A DNA stretch of 64,000 nucleotides from Myxococcales bacterium. Its GTDB lineage: Bacteria; Myxococcota; Myxococcia; Myxococcales; 40CM-4-68-19. Below the pieces are notes generated by a model. It was given only the letters and a program-made list of their open reading frames with translations, was not told the origin of the DNA and did not search any database. Shown one piece after another: positions 3,024 through 45,973 of this stretch (positions are counted from its first letter, which is position 1; each line of letters starts with the position of its first letter). A program made the position numbers and the translations under genes. The stretch covers positions 24,560-88,559 of the forward strand of contig DASXHM010000125.1 of assembly GCA_036488495.1 (NCBI GenBank), given 5' to 3'.

Positions 3024-4645
<1,622 letters not shown>

Positions 4646-10032: not shown

Positions 10033-10184
10033 CGCCGCGCGCTGGAAACGCTGGATGGTTGCAACGCTGGCTGCCGTCAGAATCGGTGACTGGGCGGAGG
10101 CGCGAATGGCGTTGAAGGCTCGGCTTTCGATGCCGCTGGTCTTGCCTCAAAGTTGCCAACCGCACAACCGCACAAGCCACGCTC

Positions 10185-10202
10185 GCGAACACTGTCCAGC
10201 GC
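10185..10202 (+). repeat. Copy A of the GCGAACACTGTCCAGCGC core motif
   Basis: The same 18-mer occurs at 50222 and 51433. With the upstream ACGCTC it matches copy C over 24 nt. The 40 nt to its right are the reverse complement of the sequence right of copy B. Confidence 0.7.
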
Positions 10203-10244
10203 GACCGACAACGCACGGGGACGGGTCATGCCCCCAAACTAGCG

Positions 10245-10340
10245 CGACGAGCTCCAAGTCGTAGAGCTGCGCGTAGGCGGCGACCTTGCCGCGCTGGGCC
10301 TCCAGGCTCACTCCGCGGTCGGCCTGTTTCTCCGTGCTCA
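10245..10340 (-). pseudogene. Fragment of a serine recombinase (resolvase-domain N-terminus)
   Basis: In my hand alignment, 95 nt match the 5' part of the recombinase gene at 36426 at 85 of 95 positions. The fragment encodes ...STEKQADRGVSLEAQRGKVAAYAQLYDLELV. There is no start codon and homology stops abruptly at both ends. Confidence 0.75.
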
Positions 10341-13263: not shown

Positions 13264-13584
13264 CGATCTCCTGCGAGCTCCGCCCACAGTGATCGACCTA
13301 GCAGCTGCGCGACGCGACGATCTAACTGTCCCGCGTGCGGATACGAACTGCCTTTTTGCGATGAGACGGAGCCTCGCCGTCCGGATGAGATATGCCCCTG
13401 TTGCGGAATCCAGTTTGGGTATGACGACCCCCGCACGTGGATGTGGCCGGAGATTTATTTGGCGCGCCGCGGAAATTGCTGGTCGTGCGACTACGGCAGA
13501 AAACAAGATGCGCAAGCCGGTACTGACGGAGCCGTGCAACTTGTCATTGCGGCCTGCCTGGCGCACGCGGTTGTCGCTTCCTAG
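13264..13584 (+). other. Start-less ORF encoding a zinc-ribbon-type Cys-rich peptide (CPxCG...CPCCG)
   Basis: The frame is open from 13264 to TAG 13582-13584. It translates to ...NCPACGYELPFCDETEPRRPDEICPCCGIQFGYDDPRTW... with no ATG, GTG or TTG before the first Cys pair. It is absent from the ORF track. Confidence 0.3.
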
Positions 13585-17242: not shown

Positions 17243-17305
17243 GGTTCGTCCGACCTTCCTCCGTCGCCTCCGGTCACGAGCGCGCGGCCCGTCTAGCCGC
17301 GCGCT

Positions 17306-17605
17306 GTAACAGCGGGTTCCCCGCAGTTACTTGTGCGACTCGATCCCTGGGGTTTTTGGCCGATCGAGTCGCGCAGAGCCGAGGCCCAAAAGCGAGCTAC
17401 TGTCCCGACACCTTTTAGGAATGTGGCCATAATCGCCTGTGTCGCGATCTCGCGGAACCCCTGCGTAAACGCACCAAAGGGCCCGATTCGGCACCGGATC
17501 GATACGTCACGGCATGACGGGTACCGGCACGGCCGGTTTTGTGCCCGAGCGCGCGGTCCACGTTGCACAACCGCTCTACCGCGCGGTCCACGTCGCACTT
17601 CGTTC
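17306..17605 (+). repeat. Structured dispersed repeat, full-length copy 1
   Basis: Aligns with 35687-35865 and 49140-49440. It begins with hairpin GTAACAGCGGG..CCCGCAGTTAC. Then comes a perfect 11-bp inverted repeat, GCGACTCGATC (17335-17345) and GATCGAGTCGC (17362-17372), around a 16-nt spacer. The right part holds a local duplication (CGCGCGGTCCACGT.GCAC twice). Confidence 0.85.
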
Positions 17606-20354: not shown

Positions 20355-20404
20355 CCTCGAGTATAGAAGCTTCGCTTTGGCGTCGAGAGCGGCATCCCAT
20401 CTCC
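20355..20404. repeat. 50-nt repeat, copy a (partner at 52333-52381)
   Basis: CCTCGAGTATAGAAGCTTCGCTTTGGCGTCGAGAGCGGCATCCCATCTCC aligns with CCTCGGTATTAAAGCTTCGCCTTGGCGTCGAGCGAGGCATCCAATCTCC. Both lie shortly after the stop of a plus-strand gene. Confidence 0.7.
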
Positions 20405-21603: not shown

Positions 21604-24600
21604 GTGCACTGCTCGTCGAGCCAGATGTTGCGTCTCTCCTTCTGCGCCCTCGTGCTCGCCGCCGGCTGCGGCGGCAACGAAGCCGGGCAGGTCGCCACCG
21701 CGCCCGCGGCGAGCCTCGTGAAGCTCTCCGGAGACGGGCAGACGGGGACCGCGGGCGCAGCGCTCGCGGCGCCACTCGTCGTCCAGGTGCTGGACGCCAA
21801 CGGCAATCCGTTCGCCGGCTTCACCATCGCCTGGGCGGCGCCAGCCGGCGGCAGCATCGCGGCGGCGACCAACACCACCGGTCCGGACGGCAAGGCCTCC
21901 ATGACCGCCACGCTCGGCAAAGTGGCCGGCGCCAACAGCTTCACCGCCACCGGCGCCGGCCTCTCGGGCTCGGTCGCGACCTTCACCGAGAACGGGGCCC
22001 CCGGCGACGCAACCGCGTTCCAGGTCGCCTTTCCCATCAGCGTCGCGACCCAGGTACCGCACGCTGCGTCCGTCACCGCTCGAGACGCAAACGGAAACTC
22101 GACGAGCTTCCATGGCACGGTCGACGTGACCTTCGGCGAGCCCGACACGGGCAGCGGCGCCCTCTTGCCCGCGGGTGTCGCGCTCGACATCACGCCGACG
22201 GTCCCAGGCGCGATTCCCAACATCACCTTCGCTACCGCCGTCACGCTGCCACCGCTCCAGTCGGTCGTCGTCACCGACGCCAAGAACCCGGCGCTCACCG
22301 GCGCGCAAACGGGAATCACGGTCACTCCGGCGGGCAGCGTCACCACGCTCGCGGCTGCTCCCACCTCGTCTTCGTTCGGCGAGACCGTCGTCTTCACTGC
22401 GCAGGTGGCCGGCGTTCCCTCCGGAGTGCCCACCGGCACGGTGAGCTTCGTCGATGGCGCGACGACCCTCGGCACCGCGACCCTCATCGGTGGCACCGCC
22501 ACCTTCTCGACAGCTTCGCTCGCGGCCGGCACCCACTCGATCAGGGTGGACTACGCAGGCGACACCAACTTCGCCGCGTCGAGCTCGGCCACGCAGCCGC
22601 TCTCGTTCGTGGTCGATCCGGCGACGACCACCGTCAGCCTGGCCACGAGCGCGACGCCCGCAAGCTTCGGAGTTGCCGTGACCTTCACCGCCGCCATCGC
22701 GGTCGCCACCGGCGCGGGCACGCCCACGGGAACGGTCTCCTTCACCGACGGCGGGGCGCCCATGGCAGGTTGCAGCTCGGTCGCGCTCACGGCTCTCCTC
22801 CGGGCGACCTGCACCACGACCACGCTCGCCGTCGGGGCGCACATCATCGCCGCCACGCTGACTGCCGACGCGAACTTCCTCGGATCGTCGAACGCGGTCA
22901 CGCAGACCGTCGACAAGGGCACCACCACGACCGTCGTCACCACCAGCGGCTCGCCCTCGGTCTTCGGCAACAGCGTGACCTTCACCGCCTCGATCGCGGT
23001 GACGGCCGGCGCCGGAGCTCCCACCGGCACGGTCGCCTTCAACGACGGCGCTTTGCCGATCGCCGGTTGCACTGCAGTGGCCTTGACGGCTGGCTCGCAA
23101 GCGGTCTGCACCAGCGCGCTCGCCGCCGGATCGCACACCATCACCGCGGCGTTTGCCGGCGACGCAAACTTCGCCGGTTCGTTGGGCACCGTCCCACAGA
23201 CGGTCGACAAGGCCACCACCAGCGTGACGGTGACCAGCAGCCTCTCGCCGTCCGCGTTCGGCAACTCCGTCACCTTCACCGCGTCCATCGCGGTGCTGAC
23301 GGGCGCGGGCACGCCCACCGGAACGGTCACCTTCGCCGAAGGGGCCAGCCCGCTGATCGGCTGCGCCGGCGTCGCGCTGAATGCCGCGCTCAAGGCGACC
23401 TGCACCCTCTCCACGCTCTCGGTCGGTTCGCACGGCATCACCGCGACCCTGGCCGCCGACGCGAACTTCACCGGCTCCTCGGGCAGCGTCGTCCAGGCGG
23501 TCAACCCGGGCACCACCACCACGGCCGTTCTGTCCAGCAACCCGACGTCGTCCTTCGGCAACAGCGTGACCTTCACCGCCACCGTCGCGGTGGCCAGTGG
23601 GGCCGGCGCGCTGACGGGCACTGTCTCCTTTACCGACACCGTCGGGGCCGGCGCACCTACGGCCATCTCCGGGTGCAACGCGGTGGCCTTGACCGGCACC
23701 CTGAGCGCGACCTGCACGACCAGCACGCTCTCCGTCGCCACCCACACCATCACCGCCAACTACAGCAGCGATCCTGACTTCTCCGGCTCCTCTGGAACCG
23801 TTGCCCAAGCCGTCAATCCGGGGACGACCGGCATCGTGGTCGTCAGCAGCAGCGGCAATCCCAGCGCGCCGGTGACGTTTGGAACGTCGCTCTCCTTCAC
23901 CGCCACCGTCGCGGTCACAGCCGGCACCGGCACGCCGTCGGGAACCGTCTCCTTCGTCGATGCCGTCGGCGCCGGCAGCCCTGGTGCCATCTCGCCGGCT
24001 TGCACGAGCGTAGCGCTCAACACCACGACCCGGCAGGCGACGTGCTCGACCGCGTCGTTGACCCCTGGTGCGCACACCATCACCGCGACCTTCACCAACG
24101 CCAACGGCAACTTCGCCGGGTCGAGCGGGACCGTCACCCAGACGGTGAATCAAGCCGCCACGACCACCGTGAGCGCCAATGGGACGGCGACCTTCGGCGC
24201 CAGCGCGACCTTCAGCGCGACCGTCAGCGCCAGCGTCAGCGCCAGCGCCGGAACGCCGACCGGGACCGTCTCCTTCGTCGACACCGCCTTCGGCGTGGCG
24301 TTGTGTACGGCCACCCTGAACACGAGCAATCCGCCGACCGCCTCGTGCAGCAGCAGCGCCCTTCCCCAGGCGGGCGCGCACACCATCACCGCGACCTATA
24401 GCGGCGACGCCGACTTCGCGACCTCGTCCACCACCTTCCAAGAGACGGCCAACGAGGCCGCGACCACCACCAGCATCACCTCGACCAGCTTGAACGCGAT
24501 CTCGACGTTCGGGCAGAGCGTCACCTTCACCGCGACGGTGGCCTTCACTTCTGCCGTCGGCGGCCCGATCGGCATCGTCACCTTCACCGATCTCCCCACT

Positions 24601-26370
24601 GGCGGCACCGCTTCCAGGCTCTGCACCGCGGTGCTCGATTCGACCCACAAGGCGATCTGCACCGTCAGCAAGGTGAATGCTGGCGTCCACACCATCGCCG
24701 CCGCCTTCCTCGATGACGGCAACTTCCTCGGCTCGACGGGCACGGTCGCGCAGGAGGTCCTCGCGGCCAACGTCCTCGTCGCCGTCAACGTCGGCGGCAC
24801 GCCCACGGCGTCGTCGGCGCCCTTCGGCACGGCGGTGACCTTCACGGCGGCGCTCACGCCGATTCCTCCCACCACCGCCGTGACCGGCACGGTCGTCTTC
24901 ATGGACACCAGCACCAACACGACGCTCGGCGGCGCGAGCTGCCCCTCGACCATCGTCTCGAATCAGGCGCATTGCACCATCTCCACGCTCGACGTCGCGC
25001 ACTCGCCGCACAGCATCGTCGCGACCTTCAATCCGGATACCGGCAATTTCGTCGGTCCGGACGACTCGCCGGCCTTCACCGAGACCATCACCCAAGCAGC
25101 GACCACCACGACCTTCGCCTTCAGCCAGCCCGGCGGCGCCGGCACCCCGGTCGTCTTGACCGCGACGGTCGCGGGCAGTCCGGACGCCGTCCTGCCTCCG
25201 TCGGGGCAAGTCACGTTCACGGCCGGGGCGATCAACGCGACGTGCGCGTTGACCAGCCTCACGGCCTCTACCGCGACCTGCACCAAGTCCATCACGGTGC
25301 CGCCCGGTGCGACGACCTTTGGCGCGAGCTACGGCGGCGACGCCAACTATCTCGGCTCGAGCGCGGCCAGCCAGACGGACACGGTGCAGAGCGCGCCGCC
25401 CGGGCCGGCAGCGGCGGCCATCCTTGGCGGGCCCCTGGACGGCAAGGTCTTCATCGCAGCCGTCAGCCAGGATGCCACGCCCTCACGGGCGACCTTGTTG
25501 TACGAGCCCGCGACCTCCGTCATGACTCCCGGGCCGCAGCTCGCCGCCCCGCGCGCGTTCCTGACCGCCACGGCCATCGGCAACGGCCTCGTCCTCCTCG
25601 CCGGCGGGAACGCCTCCGGCGGCAGCACGTTCGAGCTCTGCAGCTTCGGCGCCGGCGCCTCCTGCTCGCCGACGGGCTCGCTCAGCACCCGGCGCTGCAA
25701 CGCGGCCGCCGCGCTCGAGGGCAGCTCGGTGCTGGTGGCCGGCGGCGACGACTGCTCGGCGAACGCCACCGCGCTCGCGAGCTGGGACCTGTGGAGCGCC
25801 GATGCGATCGTCTCTTCCACCGCCGCGAACCAAATGACCGAGCCGCGCGCTTCGCCGACCGTCACCGTGCTCGGCGGCGGCGCCATCCTGCTCGCGGGCG
25901 GTGCGACCGCCGACGTCTTCCAAGGCAACGCCATCGTCCGGACTGCCCGGATGTCCACCGTCCGCAGCGGCCACAGCGCGACGCTCTTGCCGGCAGGCAG
26001 CAAGGCTTGCGCGTCCGGCGCTTGCGTCTTCGTGGCCGGCGGCGTGGCTGATGCTTCCGCGCCGAGCTGGGAGATCTTCGACGTCGCGAGCGGCAGCTTC
26101 GGCCGCGCGGCCAACGCCCCCGAGCTCTCGAACCCGCTCCTCGCGCGCCACGCCACGGCGCTCCTCGCCGATGGCCGCGTCTTGCTGGCGGGCGGCGTGG
26201 CTCTGGATCGAGCCATTGCTTCCACCGAGACCTTCGACGGCATCGCCTTCAAATCCGGTCCGCCGCTGCAGAGCGCGCGGACAGGCGCCGCAGCCGCGTA
26301 CGTGCCGTCGCTGGATCTGCTGGTGCTCTCGGACGGACGCCAGCCGCCGGAGCTGATCACCGCGCCCTGA
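21604..26370 (+). CDS. Giant lipoprotein with about a dozen Ig-like repeats and a Kelch-like beta-propeller C-terminus
   Basis: Lipobox LVLAAGCGG near the N-terminus; the start could be GTG 21604 or ATG 21625. Repeats of about 95 aa carry ..ATCT.STL..G.H.ITA.Y.GD.NF.GS...V.Q.V. The C-terminal 330 aa hold repeated ..R..H.A.LL.DGRVL.AGG.. units. Confidence 0.85.
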   Translation: MHCSSSQMLRLSFCALVLAAGCGGNEAGQVATAPAASLVKLSGDGQTGTAGAALAAPLVVQVLDANGNPFAGFTIAWAAPAGGSIAAATNTTGPDGKASMTATLGKVAGANSFTATGAGLSGSVATFTENGAPGDATAFQVAFPISVATQVPHAASVTARDANGNSTSFHGTVDVTFGEPDTGSGALLPAGVALDITPTVPGAIPNITFATAVTLPPLQSVVVTDAKNPALTGAQTGITVTPAGSVTTLAAAPTSSSFGETVVFTAQVAGVPSGVPTGTVSFVDGATTLGTATLIGGTATFSTASLAAGTHSIRVDYAGDTNFAASSSATQPLSFVVDPATTTVSLATSATPASFGVAVTFTAAIAVATGAGTPTGTVSFTDGGAPMAGCSSVALTALLRATCTTTTLAVGAHIIAATLTADANFLGSSNAVTQTVDKGTTTTVVTTSGSPSVFGNSVTFTASIAVTAGAGAPTGTVAFNDGALPIAGCTAVALTAGSQAVCTSALAAGSHTITAAFAGDANFAGSLGTVPQTVDKATTSVTVTSSLSPSAFGNSVTFTASIAVLTGAGTPTGTVTFAEGASPLIGCAGVALNAALKATCTLSTLSVGSHGITATLAADANFTGSSGSVVQAVNPGTTTTAVLSSNPTSSFGNSVTFTATVAVASGAGALTGTVSFTDTVGAGAPTAISGCNAVALTGTLSATCTTSTLSVATHTITANYSSDPDFSGSSGTVAQAVNPGTTGIVVVSSSGNPSAPVTFGTSLSFTATVAVTAGTGTPSGTVSFVDAVGAGSPGAISPACTSVALNTTTRQATCSTASLTPGAHTITATFTNANGNFAGSSGTVTQTVNQAATTTVSANGTATFGASATFSATVSASVSASAGTPTGTVSFVDTAFGVALCTATLNTSNPPTASCSSSALPQAGAHTITATYSGDADFATSSTTFQETANEAATTTSITSTSLNAISTFGQSVTFTATVAFTSAVGGPIGIVTFTDLPTGGTASRLCTAVLDSTHKAICTVSKVNAGVHTIAAAFLDDGNFLGSTGTVAQEVLAANVLVAVNVGGTPTASSAPFGTAVTFTAALTPIPPTTAVTGTVVFMDTSTNTTLGGASCPSTIVSNQAHCTISTLDVAHSPHSIVATFNPDTGNFVGPDDSPAFTETITQAATTTTFAFSQPGGAGTPVVLTATVAGSPDAVLPPSGQVTFTAGAINATCALTSLTASTATCTKSITVPPGATTFGASYGGDANYLGSSAASQTDTVQSAPPGPAAAAILGGPLDGKVFIAAVSQDATPSRATLLYEPATSVMTPGPQLAAPRAFLTATAIGNGLVLLAGGNASGGSTFELCSFGAGASCSPTGSLSTRRCNAAAALEGSSVLVAGGDDCSANATALASWDLWSADAIVSSTAANQMTEPRASPTVTVLGGGAILLAGGATADVFQGNAIVRTARMSTVRSGHSATLLPAGSKACASGACVFVAGGVADASAPSWEIFDVASGSFGRAANAPELSNPLLARHATALLADGRVLLAGGVALDRAIASTETFDGIAFKSGPPLQSARTGAAAAYVPSLDLLVLSDGRQPPELITAP
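22318..25390 (+). repeat. Tandem coding repeats (Ig-like domain array) inside the giant lipoprotein gene
   Basis: Periodic recurrence of TVSFTD/FVDG...CT...L..G.H.ITA...D.NF.GS at both protein and DNA level. Boundaries are approximate. Confidence 0.6.
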
Positions 26371-26519: not shown

Positions 26520-26582
26520 ATGAAGATCAAGACCAAGGTGCACAGCGGCGCCCTGCTGATCATCGCGTCGCGCAGCTGCTAG
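26520..26582 (+). CDS. Candidate 20-aa micro-ORF (MKIKTKVHSGALLIIASRSC)
   Basis: ATG at 26520 follows GGAGAGGAGGTGAGG at Shine-Dalgarno spacing, the strongest SD I noticed in the window. TAG at 26580-26582. Too short for the ORF track. Confidence 0.3.
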   Translation: MKIKTKVHSGALLIIASRSC

Positions 26583-26766
26583 GTCGATCGATGCTTCTTC
26601 GGGCCGGCGACTTCGACCTTCACGGCTTCCATCTCGCCGGCCTTCTTCCGCGGTGTAGGTAGCGAGTACGTTCGTTCCGTCCTTAATTCCCTTCGCGTGG
26701 AGGTAAAACCGGGTCGTCGTCAGGCGGCCGCCGGCTCGAGACTACGGCCCGGGGTGACATGTTCGA

Positions 26767-28817: not shown

Positions 28818-29786
28818 ATGAGACATTCGATCGCTCTCGTTACCGGCACCACCTCCGGGCTCGGTTATGCGGCAGCCCGCATGCTCGCCGCCGAGGGCTG
28901 CGGTCAGGTCATCGTCACGGGGCGCAGCATGGCCCGGGTTCAGGGAACGGCCGCTCAGCTCGCGGCTGAGACCAAGACCGAGGTCTTCACGCCGCTGGAG
29001 CTGGATCTGGACACGCCGTCCAGCGTTCAGTCCGCGCTCGCCGAGCTCGTCAAGGAAGGTCGGCCGATCGATTTCCTGCTGCTCAATGCAGGGATGGTCC
29101 CAGGTAAGAAGCGCGTGATCACTGCCGCGGACATCGAGGCTTCTCATGCCCCGCTCATCGGCCATCATCAACTGACTGTCGGGTTGCTCCGCGCCAACCT
29201 GCTGAGCCCCAACGCACGGATTGTGATCGCCGGCGCGGAACCTGCCCGGGGGGGCGTGCCGATGTTCAGCTACACCGATGTGCCGGCCTTCGCGGCCAGA
29301 TACTTCCGGGAAGACCGGACCACCGCTATCGAGGCCCTGATTCGCAACGGGCCAAACGTGAAGTACGTGCCCAACAATACGTATGCCGACGCGAAGCTCA
29401 TTGTCGCTTGGTGGGTCGCGTCGCTGGCGCGCCGGCTGCCCTCCGGCATGGCCGTGTACGCTGTCTCGCCCGGTGGGGCGACCGCCACCAAGGTAGTGCG
29501 AAACGCTGGCCTGGCATTGAAGTATCTTTTTATCCCAATCGTGAACCTCATTCCCGGCATGAATCAGACGCCGGAGACCGCGGCCCGCCGGTACCTCCAG
29601 GCGTCGGAGTTCGGAACTGACGTCTCAGGACAATTCTTCGCCTCCGCTCAAGGGAAGTTCTCAGGCCCAATTGAGGTGCAGCGCCAGCCGCACCTCCACG
29701 ATCGCGCCAGCCAGGAAGCCGCGTGGCAGGCCGTGGTCAAGGTCTCGGGTGTCGACTTCTCCTCCGCAGCACCCTTGAGCGTTTGA
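28818..29786 (+). CDS. Short-chain dehydrogenase/reductase (SDR) family oxidoreductase
   Basis: Rossmann motif ALVTGTTSGLGYAAA and catalytic YxxxK (TYADAKL). The stop codon lies inside a fragment of the dispersed repeat. Confidence 0.8.
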   Translation: MRHSIALVTGTTSGLGYAAARMLAAEGCGQVIVTGRSMARVQGTAAQLAAETKTEVFTPLELDLDTPSSVQSALAELVKEGRPIDFLLLNAGMVPGKKRVITAADIEASHAPLIGHHQLTVGLLRANLLSPNARIVIAGAEPARGGVPMFSYTDVPAFAARYFREDRTTAIEALIRNGPNVKYVPNNTYADAKLIVAWWVASLARRLPSGMAVYAVSPGGATATKVVRNAGLALKYLFIPIVNLIPGMNQTPETAARRYLQASEFGTDVSGQFFASAQGKFSGPIEVQRQPHLHDRASQEAAWQAVVKVSGVDFSSAAPLSV

Positions 29787-29806
29787 GGAATGTGGCCAAA
29801 ACGGCC
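29782..29806 (+). repeat. Short internal fragment of the structured dispersed repeat
   Basis: TTTGAGGAATGTGGCCAAAACGGCC matches the ...CCTTTGAGGAATGTGGCAAAAGCGGCC... segment of copy 49140-49440. Confidence 0.5.
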
Positions 29807-32799: not shown

Positions 32800-32960
32800 C
32801 GGGTGGTGAATGCGTTGTCGTCGGCGCCATAGGTCGCGCCACGCATTGTCAGCGCCCCTGCGGTAGCTTCCGAGTTGGTCTGGATCGGCCGAAAACCCAG
32901 GGATCGAGTCGCACAAGTAACCTTGTGTGGCGAGCCGGTTCGTCGCGCACGCTGTCACGA
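32800..32960 (-). repeat. Diverged/partial inverted copy of the structured dispersed repeat
   Basis: 32884-32921 is the reverse complement of GTTACTTGTGCGACTCGATCCCTGG.GTTTT.GGCCGATC. Weaker similarity extends on both sides. Boundaries are approximate. Confidence 0.55.
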
Positions 32961-35519: not shown

Positions 35520-35686
35520 TGCTTTCGAAACACTTCTGAAGGCTTGATTTCGGCTGAGCGACGGTCGTTGCCGCGGCGAGGTTCTTCCATGTCCCTTGCA
35601 CTAGATGAAGATGGGGCAAGGTAGCCTCCATGAATTTGATCACGAGGCTCGGCATATTCCATGCCTCGTAAATTTGGTAACGGGTG

Positions 35687-35865
35687 TAACAGCGGGTCCC
35701 CGCAGTTACTTGCGCGACTCGATCCCTAGGGTTTTGGCCGATCGTGTCGCGCAAAGCTGAGGCCCGAAAACGAGCTACTGCGCGGACACCTTTGCGGAAT
35801 GTGGCCAAGACGGCCGTGTCGCGTTCTCGCGAAATCCCTGCATAAACGCACCAAAAGGGCCCGAC
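35687..35865 (+). repeat. Structured dispersed repeat, right-truncated copy abutting the recombinase remnant
   Basis: Aligns with the first ~180 nt of copies at 17306 and 49140. Similarity ends at GGGCCCGA (35865), where recombinase-coding sequence on the opposite strand begins. Confidence 0.85.
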
Positions 35866-36426
35866 CTGGCGCGCCACAGCGCGGGCTTCGGCCTCCTGTG
35901 GGTCTTCCTCGAGGCGCTCACCGTCGACGGCTACGCGCCGGCCGTACGGCGCCTGCCCGCCCGTGTACTCGCCCCTGCTCGCCTTGTGCTGCATCGCCGT
36001 CGCCGTCCGCTCCCCGATGGCCTCCCGCTCCCACTGGCTGACCGAGGCAAGGACGTTTAGGACGAGTCTCCCTGCGGCGCTGCGGGTGTCGATCTGCTCT
36101 CCCACGCTGAGCAGGGCCGCCTTGCCGGGCGCGAAGTACCCCTCTACCAGCGTTCCGAGATCGACCACGCTTCGCGTTAGCCTGTCGAGCTTCACTACCA
36201 ACAGCGCTTCCGCCTGAGCCGCCTTCAGCACCGCTACAGCGCGCTTCAAGCCTGGGCGGTCGAGGCTTTTCGCGCTCTCGCCTGCGTCGACGGTGGTGTC
36301 GACGAGCTCCAAGTCGTACAGCTGCGCGTAGGCCGCGACCTTGCCGCGCTGGGCATCGAGGCTCACCCCTCGGTCAGCCTGCTTTTCGGTGCTCACTCGC
36401 AAGTAAGCGATGGTTCTCGTCGGCAT
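35866..36426 (-). pseudogene. Serine recombinase, 3'-truncated (resolvase domain only)
   Basis: MPTRTIAYLRVSTEKQADRGVSLDAQ... (catalytic Ser context), ..LLVVKLDRLTRS.., ..ASVSQWEREAIGERT.., then APYGRRVAVDGERLEEDPQEAEARAVAR. At that point the reading frame runs into the repeat. The rest of the 357-aa track ORF is read-through of repeat and lower-GC DNA. Confidence 0.75.
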
Positions 36427-36522
36427 GAGAGTGACGTTCGCTCTCTGCGCGGCGGAGTCAAGCGGACTCGACGCCTCCTCGGACCCACTGCTGCATTTGG
36501 CCGCAGCCCCACAGCACCGCCG

Positions 36523-38721: not shown

Positions 38722-41700
38722 ATGATCAAGAACCGCGCGTTGCCGTTTGTCGCCGCTCTCGCCCTGGGCGGCTCCTTCTCCGCCGTAGCGCAAACCGTCG
38801 CCGCGGACGGGTCGCTCGGCGTCTCGTACGCTTTTTCGCTGCCTGCCGCCCGTGGCCGCTACCAGCCGTGGCTTGCGCTCACCTATGACAGCAATGCGGG
38901 GACGACAAACTACGGCGTCGGGTGGACGTTGACGTCGAACTACGTTGAAGCAGTCACTCGCGCGACGCACAACACCGACTCGACGCAGCGTGCACGGTAT
39001 TTCCTGTCGTCGGCGGGCGGCAAAAGGCTTCTCGTCGCCGCCGGCGATAACAGCTACCGCGCTGATGTGTCGTCGAGCTACTTCTCCGTCACACCGTCCG
39101 TGACGCCTTCGGCATCGGCGACGCCGACTACATGGACAGCCGTCGACGGAGTCGGCAACAAGTACACGTACGGCTGCGTCCCGAGCACCGCGGCAACGTG
39201 CTCGCGTTGGTACCTGAAGTTCGTGCAGGATGTCGATAACAACACAACGTCGTTTGATTATGGAAGCACAGCAAGCGACGCGCCGGAAACGAGTACTTGC
39301 TCGGGAAACGCGACAGCGCCGACAGCTCTGCTCCTCCGCATTAGCTACAACTTTGCGATCGACGCGACGACGCCCGTGTCGACCGTCGAGCTCGCGTACG
39401 AGGTGTCGCCCGAGCCGTCTGTGCAAGCCATAAGCGGCTGTATGGTGACGCACGACCACCGGCTGTCTTCCGTCACTGTGAACCGTTCCGTATCTGCAGG
39501 ATCGCCGCCGCCCGTAGTAAGCCTTGGGTCATGGACCCTTGGCTACGTACATAACGGAAGCACCGATACGCACCGCGACCTGCTGGACCACATTCAGCGC
39601 AACGATCGCGCTGGCGCGCCATTGGGATTGGCGACCTCATTCGTATATGAAACGGACTTCGATCCGGTGAAGGTGCCACCTCTTGCCGCGGCAGCGGACT
39701 TCACGTTTGCGGGAGGCGACGCGTTTGGGCACCTCCCTAGCACGCAGTGCTGGTCGTGGGGATTGGGAGACGGGACTACTTGCGACGTCTCGCAGGCAGC
39801 CGTTTTCATGGACATGGACGGCGACGGTCTGCCCGACATCGTCTACGGCGGCAGCGACAGCATGGCTGGCGTAACGGCGCTTTATTGGGCGCGCAATCTC
39901 GGCAGCGCGAGCGGTCACCCCACGTTCGCAGCGATGACGCAGATTCCTGGCGCCGACGGCAAGAGCAGGACGAGTGTTCCCGATCCGCGTGCTGCGCCCT
40001 GGCCGGGCTTCATCTCTACGCTCAACAGCGATGGCACGACACCTACCGGGGAGGAAGCACATGGGTATTACAGTGGGCACACGCTAAAGGGCAATAACGG
40101 CGGCCCCTGGGTTGCCATGGGACCGAACAACTTCACCGGGACGTGCCCGGCCAACGGTAAGTTCGCGAATGGTACCCCCTGCCCGCCGCCGCCCATCGGC
40201 AACGGCGCTCTCGGCATGGTGGCAGATTTCAACGGCGACGGTGCGCCTGATCTCATCTCAAGCGGCTGTGGCGGAAGCGCGCGAGCATTGTCGGTGTGGT
40301 TTGCACAGATTGATCCGACCACGGGAGCACTATCGTATGCGGATGCGCCCTCGTGCGTGGATGCGACAGCGGCGTTCAACCAGATGCAGACGATGTACCA
40401 AGTGCAGCAGCTTCCGGTCAGCTACACGATGCCGGGGCCGCGTCTGTTCACCGGCAGCGGGACGACAACCAACACTTGGATTCAACTCGCTGACTTCGAC
40501 GGTGACGGCGTGCTCGATTTTATCATCGCGGATAGCAACTCCGCGACGTGGTTCGTTTATCCCGGCTATTCGCCGGGGAAAGACACGAGCGGACACACGC
40601 TTTGGGCCTTCGCCGCGACTCCGCTGCCGAACGTCGCCGCCGGTTACGCCTGGCCGCAAAATGCTGCGATGAGCCCAAACATCTACCCAATCCGCTCCGT
40701 CATGGGCCCTATGGCCGCTGCCGTGTACGACGACCCGAGTCATCCGCCTTACGATCCATCGCAACTGCTCGGTGGAAAGACGATCATCGATTTTGTCGAC
40801 GTCAACGGCGACGGTCTGCCCGATAGAGTGGTCGCATTTCAATGGTCCGACGGCAGCGCTCTCCACAATTCCTGGTTCGTCGACTACAACACGGGTACCG
40901 GCTTCGTCGAAACGCAAGGCCCGTCGAACGTCCGAGGCTTATTTCAAAAGGATCTTCCGTACCAGGACGCGTGGGTCACTACGCACGATTCGGCGCTGTT
41001 CGACCTGAATCGCGACGGGCGTCCGGATCTGATCATCCGGTCGGGTCCGAATAGCGTTACGTCCGCGGGCAACACCGCCTGCACGGGTCCCGGCGATTCC
41101 ATGAAGGTCTGGTACGGTTCGCCTACAGGGTTGAACGGCAACAGCGGTTTTGTCGAAGGGCCGTGCCTCGACAATCCGACCGGGGTGCCGAGCTGGCGAC
41201 CGTTCGATAACTACACGGACCTCGACGATCTCTCGACATCAAAGATGTACAACGAAGGCTTTGCGGATCTCGACGGCGATGGTGTTCTCGATTTCTACCG
41301 CGCACCCGGTCCGTCGGAGGGGATGCCGATCAACCATTGGTACTTCTATCGAGGGACGCATCAAAAGAGACGCTCCGACCTGCTTGTCTCCATGACGAGT
41401 TCGTCTGGGTCGACGCAGACGTACCATTGGGCGCCGTCAACGGCATACAGCGCCGGAATTTCGGGTTCGCCCATGGTTGGAGACGTGGTCGCGGCGATCG
41501 ATAGCTCCGGCCCTGCGATGTCGCCCCTGACGGTGACGTATTCCTACGCGGGCCTGAAGGCGGTGAAGGTCTGGGACGATCCAACCCAATCGCAAAATGA
41601 ATCGCTTGGCTTCACGGTGGGCTACGCGACGCCCAGCGTTGGCGGCCTCGTCTCACAGACGACCTATGGATCGACGCACGATACGCAAGGCCTCGTCGTT

Positions 41701-42891
41701 AGTGCGGCGAAAGGGACCGCCACGCCTCCATGGACGAACGGCGCCGGCGTCATCGAATCCTCGGCCGCTACATGGAGCTCGAGCAGCATCGGCAGCAACG
41801 TCATCGCGGGCACGACGTATCTGTATCCCACGTATGTGTACCCTTCCGCGCAGACGCGGAGCCGGACGGAGATGGGGGCGGCCCCCGTGTCGGTGCAGAC
41901 AGCGCAGCCGCCTGACGCTTACGGCAACATCCTAACCATGACCACCACGCCGGATGCGTTGCCGAGCGCGTCGACGGCCCCGTCGCTGACGATCAAACGC
42001 GCTTTCGCGACCGGTCCTAAGTCGGCGTGTCCCTCGTGCGTCATCGACGAGGCGATCACCGCCTCGAACGGGACTGAGCTTGGCCACAGCTATTACCATT
42101 ACGACTTAGCGGTCGGTGTCAATGTGAGCCCGAGCTCCGCCACAGCGGACTCAGTTTCCACTGTCGTCGCAAAGGGCCATCTTTCGTACGTCCAGACAGC
42201 GTGCCAGTCATGCGCCAATCCATATGAGGTCGCGTCCGCGACGTACTATTCGACGAGCGGAAACGTCCTGCGCAGTGTGAGATCGTACTCAGGCCAGGCG
42301 ATCGCGTCCGTGACGGAGGAAATCACTTACGATCCCTTCGACGACCTGTCGATCATTTCGCGCGTGGCAAAAGATGCGCCGCCGCCGCCCACGGGGACCG
42401 CGCCGCCTCAGCCGCCGTACACCTCGCTAACGACGACTTTCACGTATACGAGCTATGGCGACGTCGCGAGCGTCGTCGGGCCCGTCCTCGGGGGCACGGC
42501 GCCGACTAGCACGCCGCTGCACGCGATGGCGCTGCATCGTTCGTACGACCCTGCGGGAAGGGTGGTGGCAGAGTCGGACCAACCTCTCGGGACGACCATC
42601 ACACATGCGCTTCGCGCGTTCGAGTACGTCCTTCCCACGGTCACCACGCCTGGTGCGGTGAAGAGCTACGTCTTCGCATCGGATCCGCCATCATTCACCG
42701 CCGGAGGGCCGGTTTCGCCGTCGAACGATTCGACGCAGGTCATCACCTATTTCGACGCGCTCGGCCGCGCAGTGCAGGAACGAGTTAGGCTCGGGTCCGG
42801 CGCCGCCCCGAAATCGACCGGTGGGAATGTTATCACAAGTCGCTCCCCACCCAATATTCCGTCCGCAGCAACGTGCTCCTTGACGGGCTAG
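38722..42891 (+). CDS. SpvB/TcB-like protein: signal peptide, SpvB N-domain, FG-GAP/VCBS-type propeller repeats, C-terminal YD/RHS repeats
   Basis: MIKNRALPFVAALALGGSFSAVAQ signal. GSLGVSYAFSLPAARGRYQPWLALTYDSNAGTTNYGVGWTL (SpvB-like). Six DxDGDGxxD-type loops (DMDGDGLPDIV, DFNGDGAPDLI, DFDGDGVLDFI, DVNGDGLPDRV, DLNRDGRPDLI, DLDGDGVLDFY). Late YD repeats (YDPAGRVVAESD, YFDALGRAVQERV). Confidence 0.8.
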   Translation: MIKNRALPFVAALALGGSFSAVAQTVAADGSLGVSYAFSLPAARGRYQPWLALTYDSNAGTTNYGVGWTLTSNYVEAVTRATHNTDSTQRARYFLSSAGGKRLLVAAGDNSYRADVSSSYFSVTPSVTPSASATPTTWTAVDGVGNKYTYGCVPSTAATCSRWYLKFVQDVDNNTTSFDYGSTASDAPETSTCSGNATAPTALLLRISYNFAIDATTPVSTVELAYEVSPEPSVQAISGCMVTHDHRLSSVTVNRSVSAGSPPPVVSLGSWTLGYVHNGSTDTHRDLLDHIQRNDRAGAPLGLATSFVYETDFDPVKVPPLAAAADFTFAGGDAFGHLPSTQCWSWGLGDGTTCDVSQAAVFMDMDGDGLPDIVYGGSDSMAGVTALYWARNLGSASGHPTFAAMTQIPGADGKSRTSVPDPRAAPWPGFISTLNSDGTTPTGEEAHGYYSGHTLKGNNGGPWVAMGPNNFTGTCPANGKFANGTPCPPPPIGNGALGMVADFNGDGAPDLISSGCGGSARALSVWFAQIDPTTGALSYADAPSCVDATAAFNQMQTMYQVQQLPVSYTMPGPRLFTGSGTTTNTWIQLADFDGDGVLDFIIADSNSATWFVYPGYSPGKDTSGHTLWAFAATPLPNVAAGYAWPQNAAMSPNIYPIRSVMGPMAAAVYDDPSHPPYDPSQLLGGKTIIDFVDVNGDGLPDRVVAFQWSDGSALHNSWFVDYNTGTGFVETQGPSNVRGLFQKDLPYQDAWVTTHDSALFDLNRDGRPDLIIRSGPNSVTSAGNTACTGPGDSMKVWYGSPTGLNGNSGFVEGPCLDNPTGVPSWRPFDNYTDLDDLSTSKMYNEGFADLDGDGVLDFYRAPGPSEGMPINHWYFYRGTHQKRRSDLLVSMTSSSGSTQTYHWAPSTAYSAGISGSPMVGDVVAAIDSSGPAMSPLTVTYSYAGLKAVKVWDDPTQSQNESLGFTVGYATPSVGGLVSQTTYGSTHDTQGLVVSAAKGTATPPWTNGAGVIESSAATWSSSSIGSNVIAGTTYLYPTYVYPSAQTRSRTEMGAAPVSVQTAQPPDAYGNILTMTTTPDALPSASTAPSLTIKRAFATGPKSACPSCVIDEAITASNGTELGHSYYHYDLAVGVNVSPSSATADSVSTVVAKGHLSYVQTACQSCANPYEVASATYYSTSGNVLRSVRSYSGQAIASVTEEITYDPFDDLSIISRVAKDAPPPPTGTAPPQPPYTSLTTTFTYTSYGDVASVVGPVLGGTAPTSTPLHAMALHRSYDPAGRVVAESDQPLGTTITHALRAFEYVLPTVTTPGAVKSYVFASDPPSFTAGGPVSPSNDSTQVITYFDALGRAVQERVRLGSGAAPKSTGGNVITSRSPPNIPSAATCSLTG

Positions 42892-45800: not shown

Positions 45801-45956
45801 AGCGGCATACAGATAACTCCTGCCGGTGTATTCGGTCCTGATTTCTACGATGCCACAGCCGGAACCTGGTGGGATGTTACAACTGCTGGACAATGGGCCG
45901 ATCACGTGATGAGATACACCCCGTTCTTCGGGAGCGGATTCCCCGTTTTGCACTGA
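42873..45956 (+). CDS. RHS/YD-repeat protein (TcC-like) with an unassigned C-terminal payload domain
   Basis: Many YD repeats (YDALGRRTQV, YDALGRLTAE, YDSQSRLISI...). Core end ...AYSPALRRFLQADTIDARRYTYAFGDPLNFTDPSGR. GTG start overlaps the upstream stop by 19 nt. Confidence 0.85.
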   Translation: MLLDGLGRAVVSFEPYFSPTGAYVDPRNSSELTTARLHATVAAYDVESRPTCTVYEPVAGTIPIVPSGCSSSFAEGPTYSRATRMTYGVDSSFDGRPYMTVDMVQSWANPGSPASRVYLDAAGHARYARTPAGTYEASQYDALGRRTQVLRTSGPPGSSSPVKNAWTYDERARLASEFNDAGNYRGYSYLPTGEIAQVIQSTNSQPTIADTLAVWSVFSIGSLGRIVERDDYRHETASDCNASALQEDQTTYQYDVPYKNQTGRYDYTAGHLTAAMTGTPDAPRTTVAVGYDSHGSAVLRDEWFGASQSAHSVAETRGLDGRLLARVMTSPFLNEYNAAGQFGYSVGYDSAGNPIQVNTASLDGNGNALPFDGSGDIYWLAGTNGADPATGAYDALGRLTAERWDGGVVQKSRSFLSGSNLPSSYSTTLSGGANVYTVSGMTWQGSLLKTYSLSSNWEGGGASYSAAYDIDAHLQQWSAAPQGQTGAAQQKFAEAYGFNLENLKTVNVTNSLGFSVGSTYDYADATSPERVTSISALGATTTDTFVYDRRGRGLVVQHKLNASQAVPQDSYEYDSQSRLISIARLGSKLESLDYDGAGDLASRTFPSGSAEVARYYVGDDLTLVDHGGTGNVGYAHIRLGRLRIPSVYAKSGTLPNVIYYHRDRRNDVVATTTSSATGRGLIGLSYRYLPSGAIDKIVNAAGSPASETDPAASELGFIGGLKLSGGLVHLKARAYSPALRRFLQADTIDARRYTYAFGDPLNFTDPSGRAPGQKVPLPTVTSGDQGGGCTTPACQGLSNQPASTGGIDLSGLGSGLANLGSGIADWFRNQAAQTGGVNQDSTDATLAVAGLQASLMSNVTSVASTAWASAKQAGSWMAQHPVATGIAVVGIAAVITKAAELGATPPALSEVVSESQAYEAKIAGILNEHLETALQNFELTPAQEAAAARNPALNAMFEGTQIDALVKEYARFDPRLSGIQITPAGVFGPDFYDATAGTWWDVTTAGQWADHVMRYTPFFGSGFPVLH
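45179..45956 (+). other. C-terminal payload (toxin-tip) region of the RHS protein
   Basis: Everything after the DPSGR core terminus: a Gly-rich segment, one hydrophobic helix, and a terminal ~110-aa module ...GTQIDALVKEYARFDPRLSGIQITPAGVFGPDFYDATAGTWWDVTTAGQWADHVMRY.... Visibly lower GC than the core. Confidence 0.6.
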
Positions 45957-45973
45957 CAAAGAGGCTTGCCAGG

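What the first reader, a model, noticed from the sequence alone, without database searches (positions are those of the whole stretch)
17306..17605. Structured ~300-nt dispersed repeat family in at least five copies
Copies are at 17306-17605 (+), 49140-49440 (+), 35687-35865 (+, truncated), ~32800-32960 (-, diverged), and a 25-nt fragment at 29782-29806. Conserved features are as follows. A 5' hairpin GTAAC-A-GCGGG/CCCGC-A-GTTAC. A perfect 11-bp inverted repeat, GCGACTCGATC and GATCGAGTCGC, around a 16-nt spacer (CCTGGGGTTTTTGGCC). A conserved core ...GGAATGTGGC...TGTCGCGATCTCGCG...GCATAAACGCACCAAAAGGGCCCGA. The right part is variable, with local duplications and GGTACC palindromes. No consistent ORF is conserved across copies. 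All copies are intergenic or at gene 3' ends. Candidate identities are a MITE-like non-autonomous element, a structured ncRNA family, or recombinase binding sites. The 38-bp dyad is att/res-like in size, and one copy abuts a serine recombinase remnant.
Basis: seen in the sequence. Interest (0 to 1): 0.65.

Follow-up and report, generated by a model that had tools for sequence, protein, structure and literature searches.

The report
Decayed ends of a recombinase cassette
The repeat is real, but it is best read as the non-coding head (end palindrome, long hairpin, promoter region) of a small mobile gene cassette that carries a serine recombinase and survives here only as several decayed remnants, so it is a moderately interesting piece of mobile-DNA anatomy and probably not a new RNA or transposon class.

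Summary
The repeat exists as described. There are two roughly 265-300-nt copies (17306-17605, 49140-49437) and one 180-nt copy (35686-35865). There are also short fragments at 32880-32921(-), 29782-29806 and a new one at 10169-10190. Flanks are unrelated, there is no conserved ORF, no Rfam match, and no terminal inverted repeats or target duplications.

The decisive lead was the recombinase remnant beside copy 3. It belongs to an abundant family of about 225-aa serine recombinases. In two other metagenomic lineages a diverged homolog of the repeat lies directly upstream of, and co-oriented with, a small-ORF plus recombinase operon: L136/L137 (whole repeat, E 3e-22) and L123 (3' half, E 5e-8). 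The 24-nt palindrome hp1 also recurs just downstream of such recombinase genes (L119-L124, half-site in L114). It does not occur in 1.43 Mb of unrelated DNA.

In the window, copy 2 is followed by a frameshifted homolog of the operon's small ORF. Fragment 10169-10190 links the repeat's tail to further cassette pieces and a second recombinase fragment.

I therefore read the family as remnants of one cassette's cis-acting head. hp1 is a candidate recombinase site, hp2 a strand-biased hairpin, and the GGTACC palindromes sit in a promoter region. The functions are inferred, not shown.

The parts
17306..17605 (+). Copy c1, a solo copy between divergent host genes. hp1 is 17306-17330, with a 3-nt centre. 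hp2 is 17331-17376. The small GGCC hairpin is at about 17425-17437. The degenerate GGTACC region is at about 17487-17535. The tail is 17546-17570, in which the start codon seen in c2 reads ACG. A 30-nt tandem duplication then runs to about 17605.
   Evidence: orthologous loci of the neighbouring operon lack it
49140..49437 (+). Copy c2, the most complete copy. hp1 is 49140-49163. hp2 is 49164-49209, with perfect 15-bp arms. There are three GGTACC palindromes, including a 19-nt tandem duplication. An ATG at 49412 aligns with the first ORF start in L136. The tail ...CGCACAAGCCAGGCTCGCGAAC ends at 49437.
35686..35865 (+). Copy c3. hp1 is 35686-35709 and hp2 is 35710-35754, followed by the core up to GGGCCCGA. 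It is then fused to codon 187 of the recombinase gene on the opposite strand.
35866..36426 (-). Remnant of the small serine recombinase gene: codons 1-187 of about 225, with the Resolvase domain.
   Evidence: PF00239 E 2e-32; homologs of about 225 aa, up to 89% identity
32880..32921 (-). Fragment c4. It holds the last 5 nt of hp1, the hp2 left arm, the loop and GATC, and nothing more.
29782..29806 (+). 25-nt fragment covering the GGAATGTGGCC-loop-GGCC small hairpin.
   Evidence: (D17)
10169..10243 (+). Composite fragment 'A'. It holds the repeat's 3' tail (10169-10190), module X GCGAACACTGTCCAGCGC (10185-10207) and an inverted module Y (10201-10243). It shows that the tail and X were once contiguous.
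10245..10340 (-). Second recombinase gene fragment (codons 11-42, 90% identical to 36300-36395).
   Evidence: (D10)
50222..50652 (+). Modules X (50222-50239) and Y (50256-50290), followed by a frameshifted homolog of the cassette's small-ORF family (L136 ORF131, L136 ORF136, L119 ORF122). It probably once followed c2 directly.
51427..51470 (+). Third copy of module X with a degenerate Y.
   Evidence: (D18)

Best explanation
The repeat is the non-coding head of a small mobile gene cassette: the left end plus the upstream control region. The cassette's operon encodes two to three small proteins of unknown function and a serine recombinase of about 225 aa, built from a resolvase catalytic domain and a short C-terminal helix-turn-helix-like tail. 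The window holds several decayed copies of this cassette, not an independently multiplying mini-element.

The head has three inferred functional parts.
1. hp1 (GTAAC-N-GCGGG, 2-nt centre, CCCGC-N-GTTAC) is a sequence-conserved 24-26-bp imperfect palindrome. It marks the sharp end of homology. It has the half-site / 2-bp centre / half-site layout of the sites that small serine recombinases bind and cut. I take it as the recombinase's site, or alternatively as an end-of-unit terminator.
2. hp2 plus a small GGCC hairpin is a strand-biased folded element. Its stem drifts with compensation and its loop is conserved. It acts as single-stranded nucleic acid (RNA or ssDNA), and its role is unknown.
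3. An array of GGTACC palindromes sits immediately upstream of a -10-like TAAAAT box, which lies 6 nt before the first ATG in the intact homologs. This is an operator/promoter for the operon.

Shown: homology, boundaries, linkage to the recombinase operon in three lineages, and conserved pairing of hp1 and hp2. Inferred: every functional assignment.
For: (a) Copies have a common, sharp 5' boundary at hp1, unrelated flanks and variable 3' truncation.
(b) c3 is fused to a recombinase remnant. Fragment A joins the repeat's tail to modules X and Y and to a second recombinase fragment.
(c) c2 is followed, after about 780 nt bounded by GCGAAC on both sides, by X, Y and a frameshifted homolog of the operon's small-ORF family (tblastn E 1e-7 to 6e-5). 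Joining c2 to X/Y puts the ATG at 49412 in frame with that ORF.
(d) L136/L137 carry a homolog of the whole repeat (HMM positions 1-242, E 3.4e-22). It ends 18 nt before ORF106-ORF131-ORF95-recombinase-ORF136, on the same strand.
(e) L123 carries the repeat's 3' half (E 5e-8) directly upstream of ORF122-ORF83-ORF74-recombinase. The 5' half is cut off by the contig end.
(f) An hp1 palindrome lies 0.86 kb downstream of the recombinase in L119-L124 (22/24 identical to the window's). A half-site GCGGGCACCCGCTGTTAC lies about 10 nt after the recombinase reading frame in L114. No hp1-like motif with up to 3 substitutions occurs in 1.43 Mb (both strands counted) of unrelated loci.
(g) Block conservation against L136: hp1 84%, hp2 loop 81%, hp2 right arm 47%. 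hp1 and hp2 are 94% paired across 4 sequences, with 3 double-sided changes.
(h) The recombinase has a catalytic domain like TP901-1 integrase and gamma-delta resolvase plus a short C-terminal tail, so a short dimer-binding site is expected for it.
(i) More distant homolog loci carry other long palindromes with a 2-bp centre and a ..GT[AG]AC..CGG-NN-CCG.. theme (L130 15-2-15, L129 13-2-13).
(j) Relatives' orthologous loci of c1's neighbouring operon lack the repeat.
Against: No intact cassette is present in the window, and c1 has no cassette gene remnant beside it, so a mini-element origin for c1 cannot be excluded. In c3 and in fragment A the recombinase is on the opposite strand to the repeat, unlike in L136 and L123, which requires rearrangements.

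An intact palindrome at the end of homology is not what a simple crossover at its centre would leave, because integration should split it. hp1 could equally be a terminator: the scan flagged it in c1, and in L119 it sits between convergent genes.

Only three external lineages support the linkage. Several close recombinase homolog loci (L115-118, L135, L138-146) show neither the repeat nor hp1. The promoter assignment rests on consensus-like hexamers in two sequences only, and the window copies have lost them. Whether DNA to the left of the repeat in L136/L137 is host or mobile DNA is unknown; my reading of a broken response-regulator gene there got no Pfam support.
Confidence: 0.55

Rival explanations
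1. The repeat is an independent non-autonomous mobile element, MITE-like or PATE-like, moving as a single strand or by a trans-acting recombinase. It merely tends to land in mobile-DNA-rich regions, including the recombinase cassettes.
For: It is a discrete unit of 180-300 nt with a sharp common 5' end and unrelated flanks. c1 is a solo copy inserted in an intergenic region that lacks it in relatives. c1 and c2 end at nearly the same 3' position. The hairpins show + strand-specific G-T/G-U tolerance, as expected for elements handled as single strands.
Against: There are no terminal inverted repeats, no target-site duplication and no conserved target sequence. No second end hairpin resembles the first. 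Copies are 81-90% identical, which is no younger than the recombinase fragments (90%). The same position and orientation upstream of the same operon in L136, L123 and the c2/X/Y reconstruction is hard to obtain by independent insertions. The 3' tail contains the operon's start codon. Two 20-25-base patterns found nothing in 185,579 species genomes.
Confidence: 0.15
2. The repeat's main product is a structured RNA. This could be a cis-acting leader or insulator of the cassette transcript, or a small RNA that controls the cassette, such as an immunity or antisense regulator. Under this reading the copies are RNA genes or pseudogenes.
For: The c1 + strand folds with z = -4.5, against -2.1 for the - strand. 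Stems vary less than loops (14/114 versus 21/72 variable columns, p = 0.006). All 7 one-sided stem changes give G-U on the + strand. hp2 shows 3 double-sided changes and a conserved loop against L136. The small GGCC hairpin is kept with different stems and loops in L136 and L123, with a G-U to G-C change at the closing pair. A hairpin followed by TTTTG occurs in c1 and c2 in different registers (read directly from the sequences).
Against: There is no Rfam match even at E of 1 or less. No promoter is conserved upstream of hp1 or inside the repeat. The central domain's predicted helices are broken in L136. The consensus folding energy is about equal on both strands (-65.3 versus -66.9), and L136 folds equally well on both strands (z = -2.84 and -2.85). 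With 3-4 sequences the covariation is not beyond shuffles for the whole structure (325/500) and only modest for hp1 and hp2 (33/500). The plausible operon promoter lies downstream of the hairpins, so they would not be in that mRNA.
Confidence: 0.2
3. The copies arose by plain segmental duplication of one locus, and no element biology is involved.
For: All three large copies are on the same strand within 32 kb.
Against: Six-frame and nucleotide comparisons show no homology in the flanks beyond the repeat itself. Homologs exist in unrelated metagenomes.
Confidence: 0.03

Closest known systems
res / crossover sites and upstream control regions of small serine recombinases (Tn3 and gamma-delta res, Sin resH, hix/gix of Hin/Gin invertases)
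   Same: It is a non-coding region of one to three hundred bp lying upstream of, or next to, the recombinase operon. It contains an imperfect palindrome of two half-sites of about 11-12 bp around a 2-bp centre (hp1), plus further palindromes that overlap a putative promoter. The recombinase has the resolvase catalytic domain.
   Different: hp1, hp2 and the GGTACC palindromes share no common half-site, unlike the three subsites of res. There is no sequence similarity to the hix, gix or res consensus (from my own knowledge of those sequences). The recombinase gene is about 1 kb downstream, behind three small ORFs. The recombinase's C-terminal part resembles the start of the large-serine-recombinase 'recombinase domain' and not HTH_7. 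Activity is untested.
Small structured dispersed repeats of bacteria (BOX elements of Streptococcus pneumoniae, ERIC/IRU, Correia elements, REP/REPIN)
   Same: It is short, non-coding, intergenic and strongly hairpin-forming. It is modular, with variable numbers of internal sub-repeats, as with boxB. It is dispersed with unrelated flanks.
   Different: Here the copies are tied to remnants of a gene cassette, and a diverged homolog keeps the same place upstream of the same operon in other lineages. There are no terminal inverted repeats or TA duplication (Correia), no whole-element palindrome (ERIC), and no RAYT gene. Only a few copies are known.
Solo ends and remnants of decayed mobile elements (for example solo IS ends or prophage att-proximal remnants)
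   Same: One end is always intact at the same nucleotide while the other side is deleted to varying extents. Copies co-occur with fragments of the element's genes. They sit in a low-GC, toxin- and immunity-rich island-like region.
   Different: The parent element has not been seen intact in this genome, and its mode of movement is unknown.

Membership tests
MITE (non-autonomous DDE-transposon derivative) | Terminal inverted repeats at the two extreme ends | tested here: not met
   The 5' end is GTAACAG... and the 3' end is ...GTCGCACAAG. The reverse complement of the 3' end matches only an internal site (positions 25-36), not the terminus.
MITE (non-autonomous DDE-transposon derivative) | Target-site duplication flanking each copy | tested here: not met
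   No direct repeat of 8 nt or more spans the two flanks of c1, c2 or c3. The c1 11-mer CGAGCGCGCGG repeats flank-to-interior, not flank-to-flank.
MITE (non-autonomous DDE-transposon derivative) | Many similar copies genome-wide | not testable with these tools
   Only 64 kb of the source MAG is available. Exact-pattern scans of GTDB species genomes found none. A metagenome scan gave only chance palindromes.
IS200/IS605-derived PATE | Similar subterminal hairpins at both ends and a conserved short target sequence 5' of the left end | tested here: not met
   hp1 and hp2 are both at the left end and no related hairpin is at the right end. The 5' flanks GCGCT, CGAGC and CGGGT share no motif.
Any Rfam RNA family | Match to a covariance model at or near the gathering score | tested here: not met
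   There are 0 hits at gathering threshold in the window. The best sub-threshold hits are Betaproteobacteria-1 at 16 bits against 49 and a microRNA model in L136 away from the element.
Crossover site of a small serine recombinase (hix/gix/res-site-I type) | Imperfect palindrome of two half-sites of about 12 bp around a 2-bp centre | tested here: met
   hp1 is 11 + 2 + 11, with centre TC in c2, c3 and L119 and GT in L136. c1 has a 3-nt centre.
Crossover site of a small serine recombinase (hix/gix/res-site-I type) | Located beside the recombinase gene it serves | tested here: met
   It lies within 0-1.3 kb of the recombinase gene in c3, L136/L137, L119-L124 and L114, and is absent from 1.43 Mb of unrelated loci. 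It was not found in L115, L135 or L138.
Crossover site of a small serine recombinase (hix/gix/res-site-I type) | Bound and recombined by the recombinase | not testable with these tools
   This needs EMSA and in vitro or in vivo recombination assays.
Tn3-type res site | Three subsites built from one shared binding motif | tested here: not met
   The half-sites of hp1 (GTAACAGCGGG), hp2 (TTGTGCGACTCGATC) and the GGTACC palindromes are unrelated.
attP/attB of a large serine recombinase | A 40-50-bp imperfect dyad recognised through conserved arms by a 450-700-aa recombinase with zinc-ribbon and coiled-coil domains | tested here: not met
   hp2 has the right size (46 bp). However, its arms drift with compensation while its spacer is conserved. 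The recombinase is about 225 aa and matches only residues about 10-219 of CcrB.
Integron attC site | R''/R' cores (RYYYAAC ... GTTRRRY), 57-141 bp, extrahelical bases, and an IntI integrase nearby | tested here: not met
   hp1 has AAC...GTT but is only 24 nt. No tyrosine integrase domain appeared among the ~38 window ORFs scanned against Pfam, which do not cover the whole window.
Intrinsic terminator | G+C-rich stem-loop followed by a U run | tested here: inconclusive
   hp1 of c1 is flagged by the scan, but hp1 of c2 and c3 is not. In L119 hp1 sits between convergent genes and is followed by TTATTTCC.

The most novel reading that the evidence does not exclude
The hairpins hp2 and the small GGCC hairpin, and possibly hp1, form a new cis-acting single-stranded element (RNA or ssDNA) that a family of miniature serine recombinases needs in order to move or control its cassette. 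Examples would be a strand-specific recombination, replication or transfer signal, or an RNA cofactor. That would make this a new class of structured nucleic acid tied to serine recombinases.
Probability: 0.07. Interest if true: 0.8.

Novelty: new member of a known kind. Interest (0 to 1): 0.38.

Why it matters
If this reading is right, an apparent 'new repeat or ncRNA family' becomes a marker for a widespread but uncharacterised cassette built around a serine recombinase of about 225 aa. That recombinase family has thousands of close homologs in soil metagenomes. The reading supplies a concrete candidate site (hp1) and a candidate control region for a recombinase family whose substrates are unknown. 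It also explains the local patchwork of short repeats in this toxin- and immunity-rich island as cassette debris. It does not by itself open a long-standing question. Its value lies in annotation, in avoiding a false ncRNA or MITE call, and as a starting point for testing a compact site-specific recombinase.

Tried and rejected
(1) Rfam at gathering and at permissive E-values on the window, c1, L136 and L123 gave nothing.

(2) Exact or degenerate pattern scans:
- Genome collection, twice: 0 hits.
- Metagenome collection with the hp2 dyad pattern: 107 loci, all chance palindromes by blastn.
- Viral contigs with four patterns: 0 hits or chance coding hits.

(3) blastn against plasmids and phages gave nothing.

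(4) I searched the protein database with a concatenated six-frame translation of the three copies, hoping for spurious ORF calls over other copies. There were no hits.

(5) I tried to fetch the source contig through its own protein. It is not on record.

(6) I tested whether c1 is a conserved leader of the neighbouring operon. It is absent from three orthologous loci.

(7) I tried to extend the short fragments c4 and 29782-29806 into degenerate full copies. The result was no better than shuffles.

(8) I tested sigma-70, sigma-54 and ECF-type promoters by scan and by eye. None is conserved across the window copies.

(9) I looked for guide-like complementarity between variable loops and flanks. 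There is none.

(10) I looked for similarity between the repeat and the recombinase gene or its immediate flanks beyond hp1. There is none.

(11) I compared the repeat by eye with oriT nic sites, the rolling-circle nick site CTTGATA, the group II intron 5' end, retron msr/msd and integron attC. Resemblances were either not conserved among homologs or lacked the defining features.

(12) Two literature searches for myxobacterial repeat families or MITEs found nothing relevant.

(13) My reading of a broken response-regulator gene upstream of the L137 element was not supported by Pfam, and I dropped it.
Full report
**1. The observation**

Reading the coordinates and running repeat finding, nhmmer/blastn and a self-comparison confirm three substantial homologous copies on the + strand:
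- c1 is 17306-17570, prolonged to about 17605 by a local 30-nt tandem duplication.
- c2 is 49140-49422, and its tail continues to 49437.
- c3 is 35686-35865.

Pairwise identity is 81-90%, with E-values of 1e-54 to 1e-74.

The minus-strand 'diverged copy' is only a 43-nt fragment (32880-32921, 93%). The 25-nt fragment at 29782-29806 is significant (E about 1e-4). Neither extends further than shuffled controls allow. A further 22-nt fragment of the 3' tail lies at 10169-10190.

- hp1, GTAAC-A-GCGGG/CCCGC-A-GTTAC
- hp2, an 11-15-bp dyad around a 15-16-nt spacer
- the conserved core
- a right part with GGTACC palindromes and local tandem duplications

Single-base indels break every reading frame across copies. 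Flanking DNA and flanking ORFs are unrelated, so this is not a segmental duplication.

On context, c1 lies between the 5' ends of two divergent genes, not at a 3' end. c3 lies between an alpha/beta hydrolase gene and a truncated recombinase gene. c4 lies just after an amidohydrolase gene.

**2. First-line identity tests**

Rfam gives nothing at gathering threshold or at permissive E-values. There are no tRNAs. No sigma-70-like promoter or terminator is shared by the copies. There are no terminal inverted repeats, no target-site duplications and no common 5' target.

The source is an NCBI third-party-annotated MAG named 'Myxococcales bacterium'; the window has 65.9% G+C. The following searches found no relative:
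- exact-pattern scans of 185,579 species genomes
- a metagenome scan (only chance palindromes)
- viral contigs
- plasmid and phage BLAST
- a six-frame 'spurious ORF' protein search

The operon next to c1 is conserved in three distant relatives, and their upstream regions lack the repeat. In this lineage c1 is therefore an insertion, not a conserved leader.

**3. Structure**

c1 folds better on the + strand (z = -4.5) than on the - strand (z = -2.1). Among the three window copies, predicted stems vary less than unpaired columns (14/114 versus 21/72, p = 0.006). All seven one-sided stem changes give G-U on the + strand, which would be C-A on the - strand.

This evidence is weak, for three reasons. 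The structure was predicted from the same sequences. The consensus energies of the two strands are about equal. With three sequences, the covariation measures are not above shuffles.

**4. The recombinase lead**

The ORF abutting c3 (35866-36426, minus strand) has a Resolvase domain. A database search showed it is not a remnant of a large serine recombinase. It is 187 of about 225 codons of a very abundant, highly conserved family: 7,910 hits at E of 1e-20 or less, with top hits 80-89% identical and 217-238 aa long.

The proteins have a catalytic domain like TP901-1 integrase and gamma-delta resolvase. They also have a tail of about 65 aa that resembles the first, helix-turn-helix-like part of the large-serine-recombinase 'recombinase domain'. 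Related genes at 42-54% identity sit on small cyanobacterial and other plasmids, annotated only as 'recombinase family protein'.

A second 96-nt fragment of the same gene is at 10245-10340.

**5. Homologs of the repeat beside homologs of the recombinase**

I fetched the contigs of close recombinase homologs and scanned them with an HMM of the repeat.

- **L136/L137.** L136 (GCA_043781535.1, JAYWBL010000286.1) and L137 (an ENA assembly) contain a homolog of the whole repeat (HMM positions 1-242, E 3.4e-22, roughly 65% identical) at L136:610-844. It ends 18 nt before an operon ORF106-ORF131-ORF95-recombinase-ORF136 on the same strand. That contig also encodes a terminase small subunit (phrog_4102, E 4e-26) and a DNA methylase, which indicates a prophage-like setting.
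- **L123.** With the improved HMM, L123 (a JGI contig) shows the 3' half of the repeat (E 5e-8) directly upstream of ORF122-ORF83-ORF74-recombinase. The 5' half is cut off by the contig end. Sister contigs such as L119 carry the identical recombinase. They diverge from L123 exactly inside the GGTACC array and keep only the promoter-proximal part.
- **hp1 downstream of the recombinase.** The hp1 palindrome alone (GTAACTGCGGGTCCCCGCAGTTAT, 22/24 identical) lies 0.86 kb downstream of the recombinase in L119-L124. It overlaps the stop codon of the next ORF. In L114 the half-site GCGGGCACCCGCTGTTAC follows the recombinase reading frame by about 10 nt.
- **Loci without it.** Other close homolog loci (L115-118, L135, L138-146) and more distant viral ones (L127-134) lack the repeat and hp1.

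**6. Cassette debris in the window**

tblastn with the neighbours of the recombinase found a frameshifted homolog of the ORF131/ORF122/ORF136 family at 50358-50652.

That pseudogene is preceded by two short modules, X (GCGAACACTGTCCAGCGC) and Y. Both recur at 10185-10243, where Y is inverted, and at 51427-51470.

Fragment A (10169-10243) joins the tail of the repeat (CGCACAAGCC-GCTCGCGAAC) directly to X. c2 ends with the same GCGAAC (49437) with which X begins at 50222. Joining the two puts the ATG at 49412 in frame with the ORF131-like reading frame. That ATG aligns with the ORF106 start of L136 (GCGCTTGA, then 11-12 nt, then ATG).

The simplest reading is that c2, X, Y and the small ORF were once contiguous and are now split by an insert of about 780 nt.

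Two of the three large copies (c2, c3) and fragment A are therefore physically tied to cassette genes. The arrangement 'repeat, then small ORFs, then recombinase' is shared by the window's c2 reconstruction, L136 and L123.

**7. What the comparison says about the parts**

Identity of each part between L136 and the window consensus:

| Part | Identity |
|---|---|
| hp1 | 84% |
| hp2 loop | 81% |
| CGAAACCC..GC.TAAA.GCA.CAAAAGG block | 76% |
| hp2 left arm | 73% |
| hp2 right arm | 47% |
| rest of the core | about 50% |

- **hp1 and hp2.** They remain 94% paired over four sequences. Three pairs changed on both sides, all in hp2: 4 of 500 shuffles reach the observed percentage paired, and 33 of 500 reach the observed covariation.
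- **hp2.** A stem that drifts with compensation around a conserved loop is what a folded single strand shows. It is the opposite of what a dimer-binding duplex palindrome shows.
- **hp1.** It is conserved in sequence on both arms, and its 2-nt centre varies (TC, GT; TTC in c1). That layout, 11 + 2 + 11, is the one used by small serine recombinases. This comparison comes from my own knowledge of hix, gix and res site I; there is no sequence similarity to those sites.
- **Small GGCC hairpin.** The hairpin after the invariant GGAAT-N-T is kept with different stems and loops: GGCC-N5-GGCC in the window, GGCCAG-ACA-UUGGUC in L136 and GGCCAG-AUA-CUGGUC in L123.
- **Rest of the core.** The predicted helices are broken in L136, so a large conserved RNA fold is not supported.
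- **Right part.** It carries two or three GGTACC-centred palindromes in every homolog. In L136 and L123 it also has a TAAAAT box 6 nt before an ATG, consistent with a promoter for a leaderless first gene. This is an inference from two sequences, and the window copies have lost the box.
- **Other palindromes.** More distant recombinase loci carry other long palindromes with a 2-bp centre and a similar GT[AG]AC..CGG-NN-CCG theme (L130, L129). This observation is post hoc.

**8. Interpretation**

The best-supported reading is that the 'dispersed repeat' is the cis-acting head of a recombinase cassette. It comprises an end or site palindrome (hp1), a strand-biased hairpin module (hp2 plus the small hairpin) and a promoter/operator.

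The window, which includes a low-GC region rich in toxin and immunity genes, holds several decayed copies of that cassette.

The copies share one intact end and are truncated to different extents on the other side: c3 at position 181, c1 at about 265-300, and c2 interrupted at 298. That pattern is what decaying mobile DNA leaves.

I give this reading 0.55. The functional labels are inferred. hp1 could be a terminator instead of a recombination site, and an intact palindrome at the boundary is not what a simple central crossover would leave. The opposite orientation of the recombinase in c3 and in fragment A requires rearrangements.

The rivals are:
- an independent MITE-like element, 0.15. It is disfavoured by the conserved synteny, by the start codon in the tail, and by the lack of terminal inverted repeats and target duplications.
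- a primarily RNA-level function, 0.20. It is not exclusive of the main reading and is supported mainly for hp2.
- plain segmental duplication, 0.03. It is contradicted.

**9. Novelty and value**

Nothing like this repeat is in Rfam, and I found no description of it. In kind it is a new member of something familiar: the non-coding end or control region of a mobile element, seen as remnants.

It matters chiefly for annotation, because it avoids a false ncRNA or MITE call. It also hands a candidate site and control region to a large, uncharacterised family of miniature serine recombinases.

The most novel reading still open is a new single-stranded structured element required by these recombinases. 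I rate it at about 7%.

Noticed in passing
window 10185-10243, 50222-50290, 51427-51470: This is a second small repeat family. It consists of module X (GCGAACACTGTCCAGCGC) followed by CAC(G/C)GCTAGCCTGG and module Y (GGGGGCATGA.CCGTCCCCG..GCGTTGTCG). Y is inverted at 10201-10243 relative to 50256-50290. X and Y appear to be further pieces of the same cassette, lying between the repeat's tail and the small ORF.
   Followed up: partly
window 49438-50221: A segment of about 780 nt is bounded on both sides by GCGAAC and separates c2 from X/Y. It carries an ORF at 49448-49945 on the minus strand that has no Pfam or NCBIfam match. It looks like an insertion with a 6-bp duplication.
   Followed up: partly
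window 17563-17570, 49416-49423, 10162-10176, 32922-32929; L119 about 1305-1312: The motif GCACAA(G/C), which is also part of the hp2 arms, sits at several points where homology between family members stops. It also sits where the L119-type and L123-type contigs diverge. This may mark a recombination-prone site. It was noticed post hoc and has not been tested statistically.
   Followed up: no
window 36427-36460; L136 1854-1878; L115 about 3975-4003: A conserved palindrome, GAGAGCGA-N3-TC(G/A)CTCTC, ends in the recombinase's own ATG. It lies within the roughly 40 nt upstream of the gene that stay conserved between loci. It could be an autoregulatory operator or a hairpin that sequesters the start codon.
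   Followed up: no
window 17277-17287 and 17546-17556: The 11-mer CGAGCGCGCGG in the left flank of c1 recurs inside c1 near its 3' end. The left flank also forms a 10-bp hairpin (AGCGCGCGGC...GCCGCGCGCT) that abuts hp1.
   Followed up: no
window 13291-13322 and 26558-26589: A 32-nt inverted repeat pair, 97% complementary and 13 kb apart (GATCGACCTAGCAGCTGCGCGACGCGACGATC).
   Followed up: no
window 20355-20404 and 52333-52381: A 50-nt direct repeat pair, 86% identical and 32 kb apart.
   Followed up: no
window 21604-26370: A long ORF contains at least seven tandem repeats of about 294-324 nt. They are 60-80% identical and typical of a repetitive surface protein.
   Followed up: no
window 38722-48882: This is a Tc-toxin-like locus. 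It includes SpvB, TcdB_toxin_midN and FG-GAP domains at 38722-42891, a 1027-aa ORF with no Pfam hit, a pentapeptide-repeat ORF, and an Imm26 immunity gene at 48403-48882 on the minus strand. G+C falls to 58-63% between about 39 and 53 kb. L114, a recombinase homolog locus, also lies next to an RHS-repeat gene.
   Followed up: partly
L115 2955-3171; L114 2593-2644 and 3530-3611: Loci carrying the recombinase are littered with partial extra copies of the recombinase gene (5' and 3' pieces), as in the window. In L115 the main copy is cut at codon 160 next to what looks like an IS3-type transposase fragment, and an IS630-type (DDE_3 + HTH) gene is nearby.
   Followed up: partly
L130 2012-2043; L129 4870-4897: Long perfect or near-perfect palindromes with a 2-bp centre lie within 0.3-1.2 kb of more distant recombinase homologs on viral contigs. 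They are TTTGTCATGTAACGG-TT-CCGTTGCATGACAAA and AGTGACGTGACGG-GT-CCGTGACGTCACT. Their layout is reminiscent of hp1.
   Followed up: no
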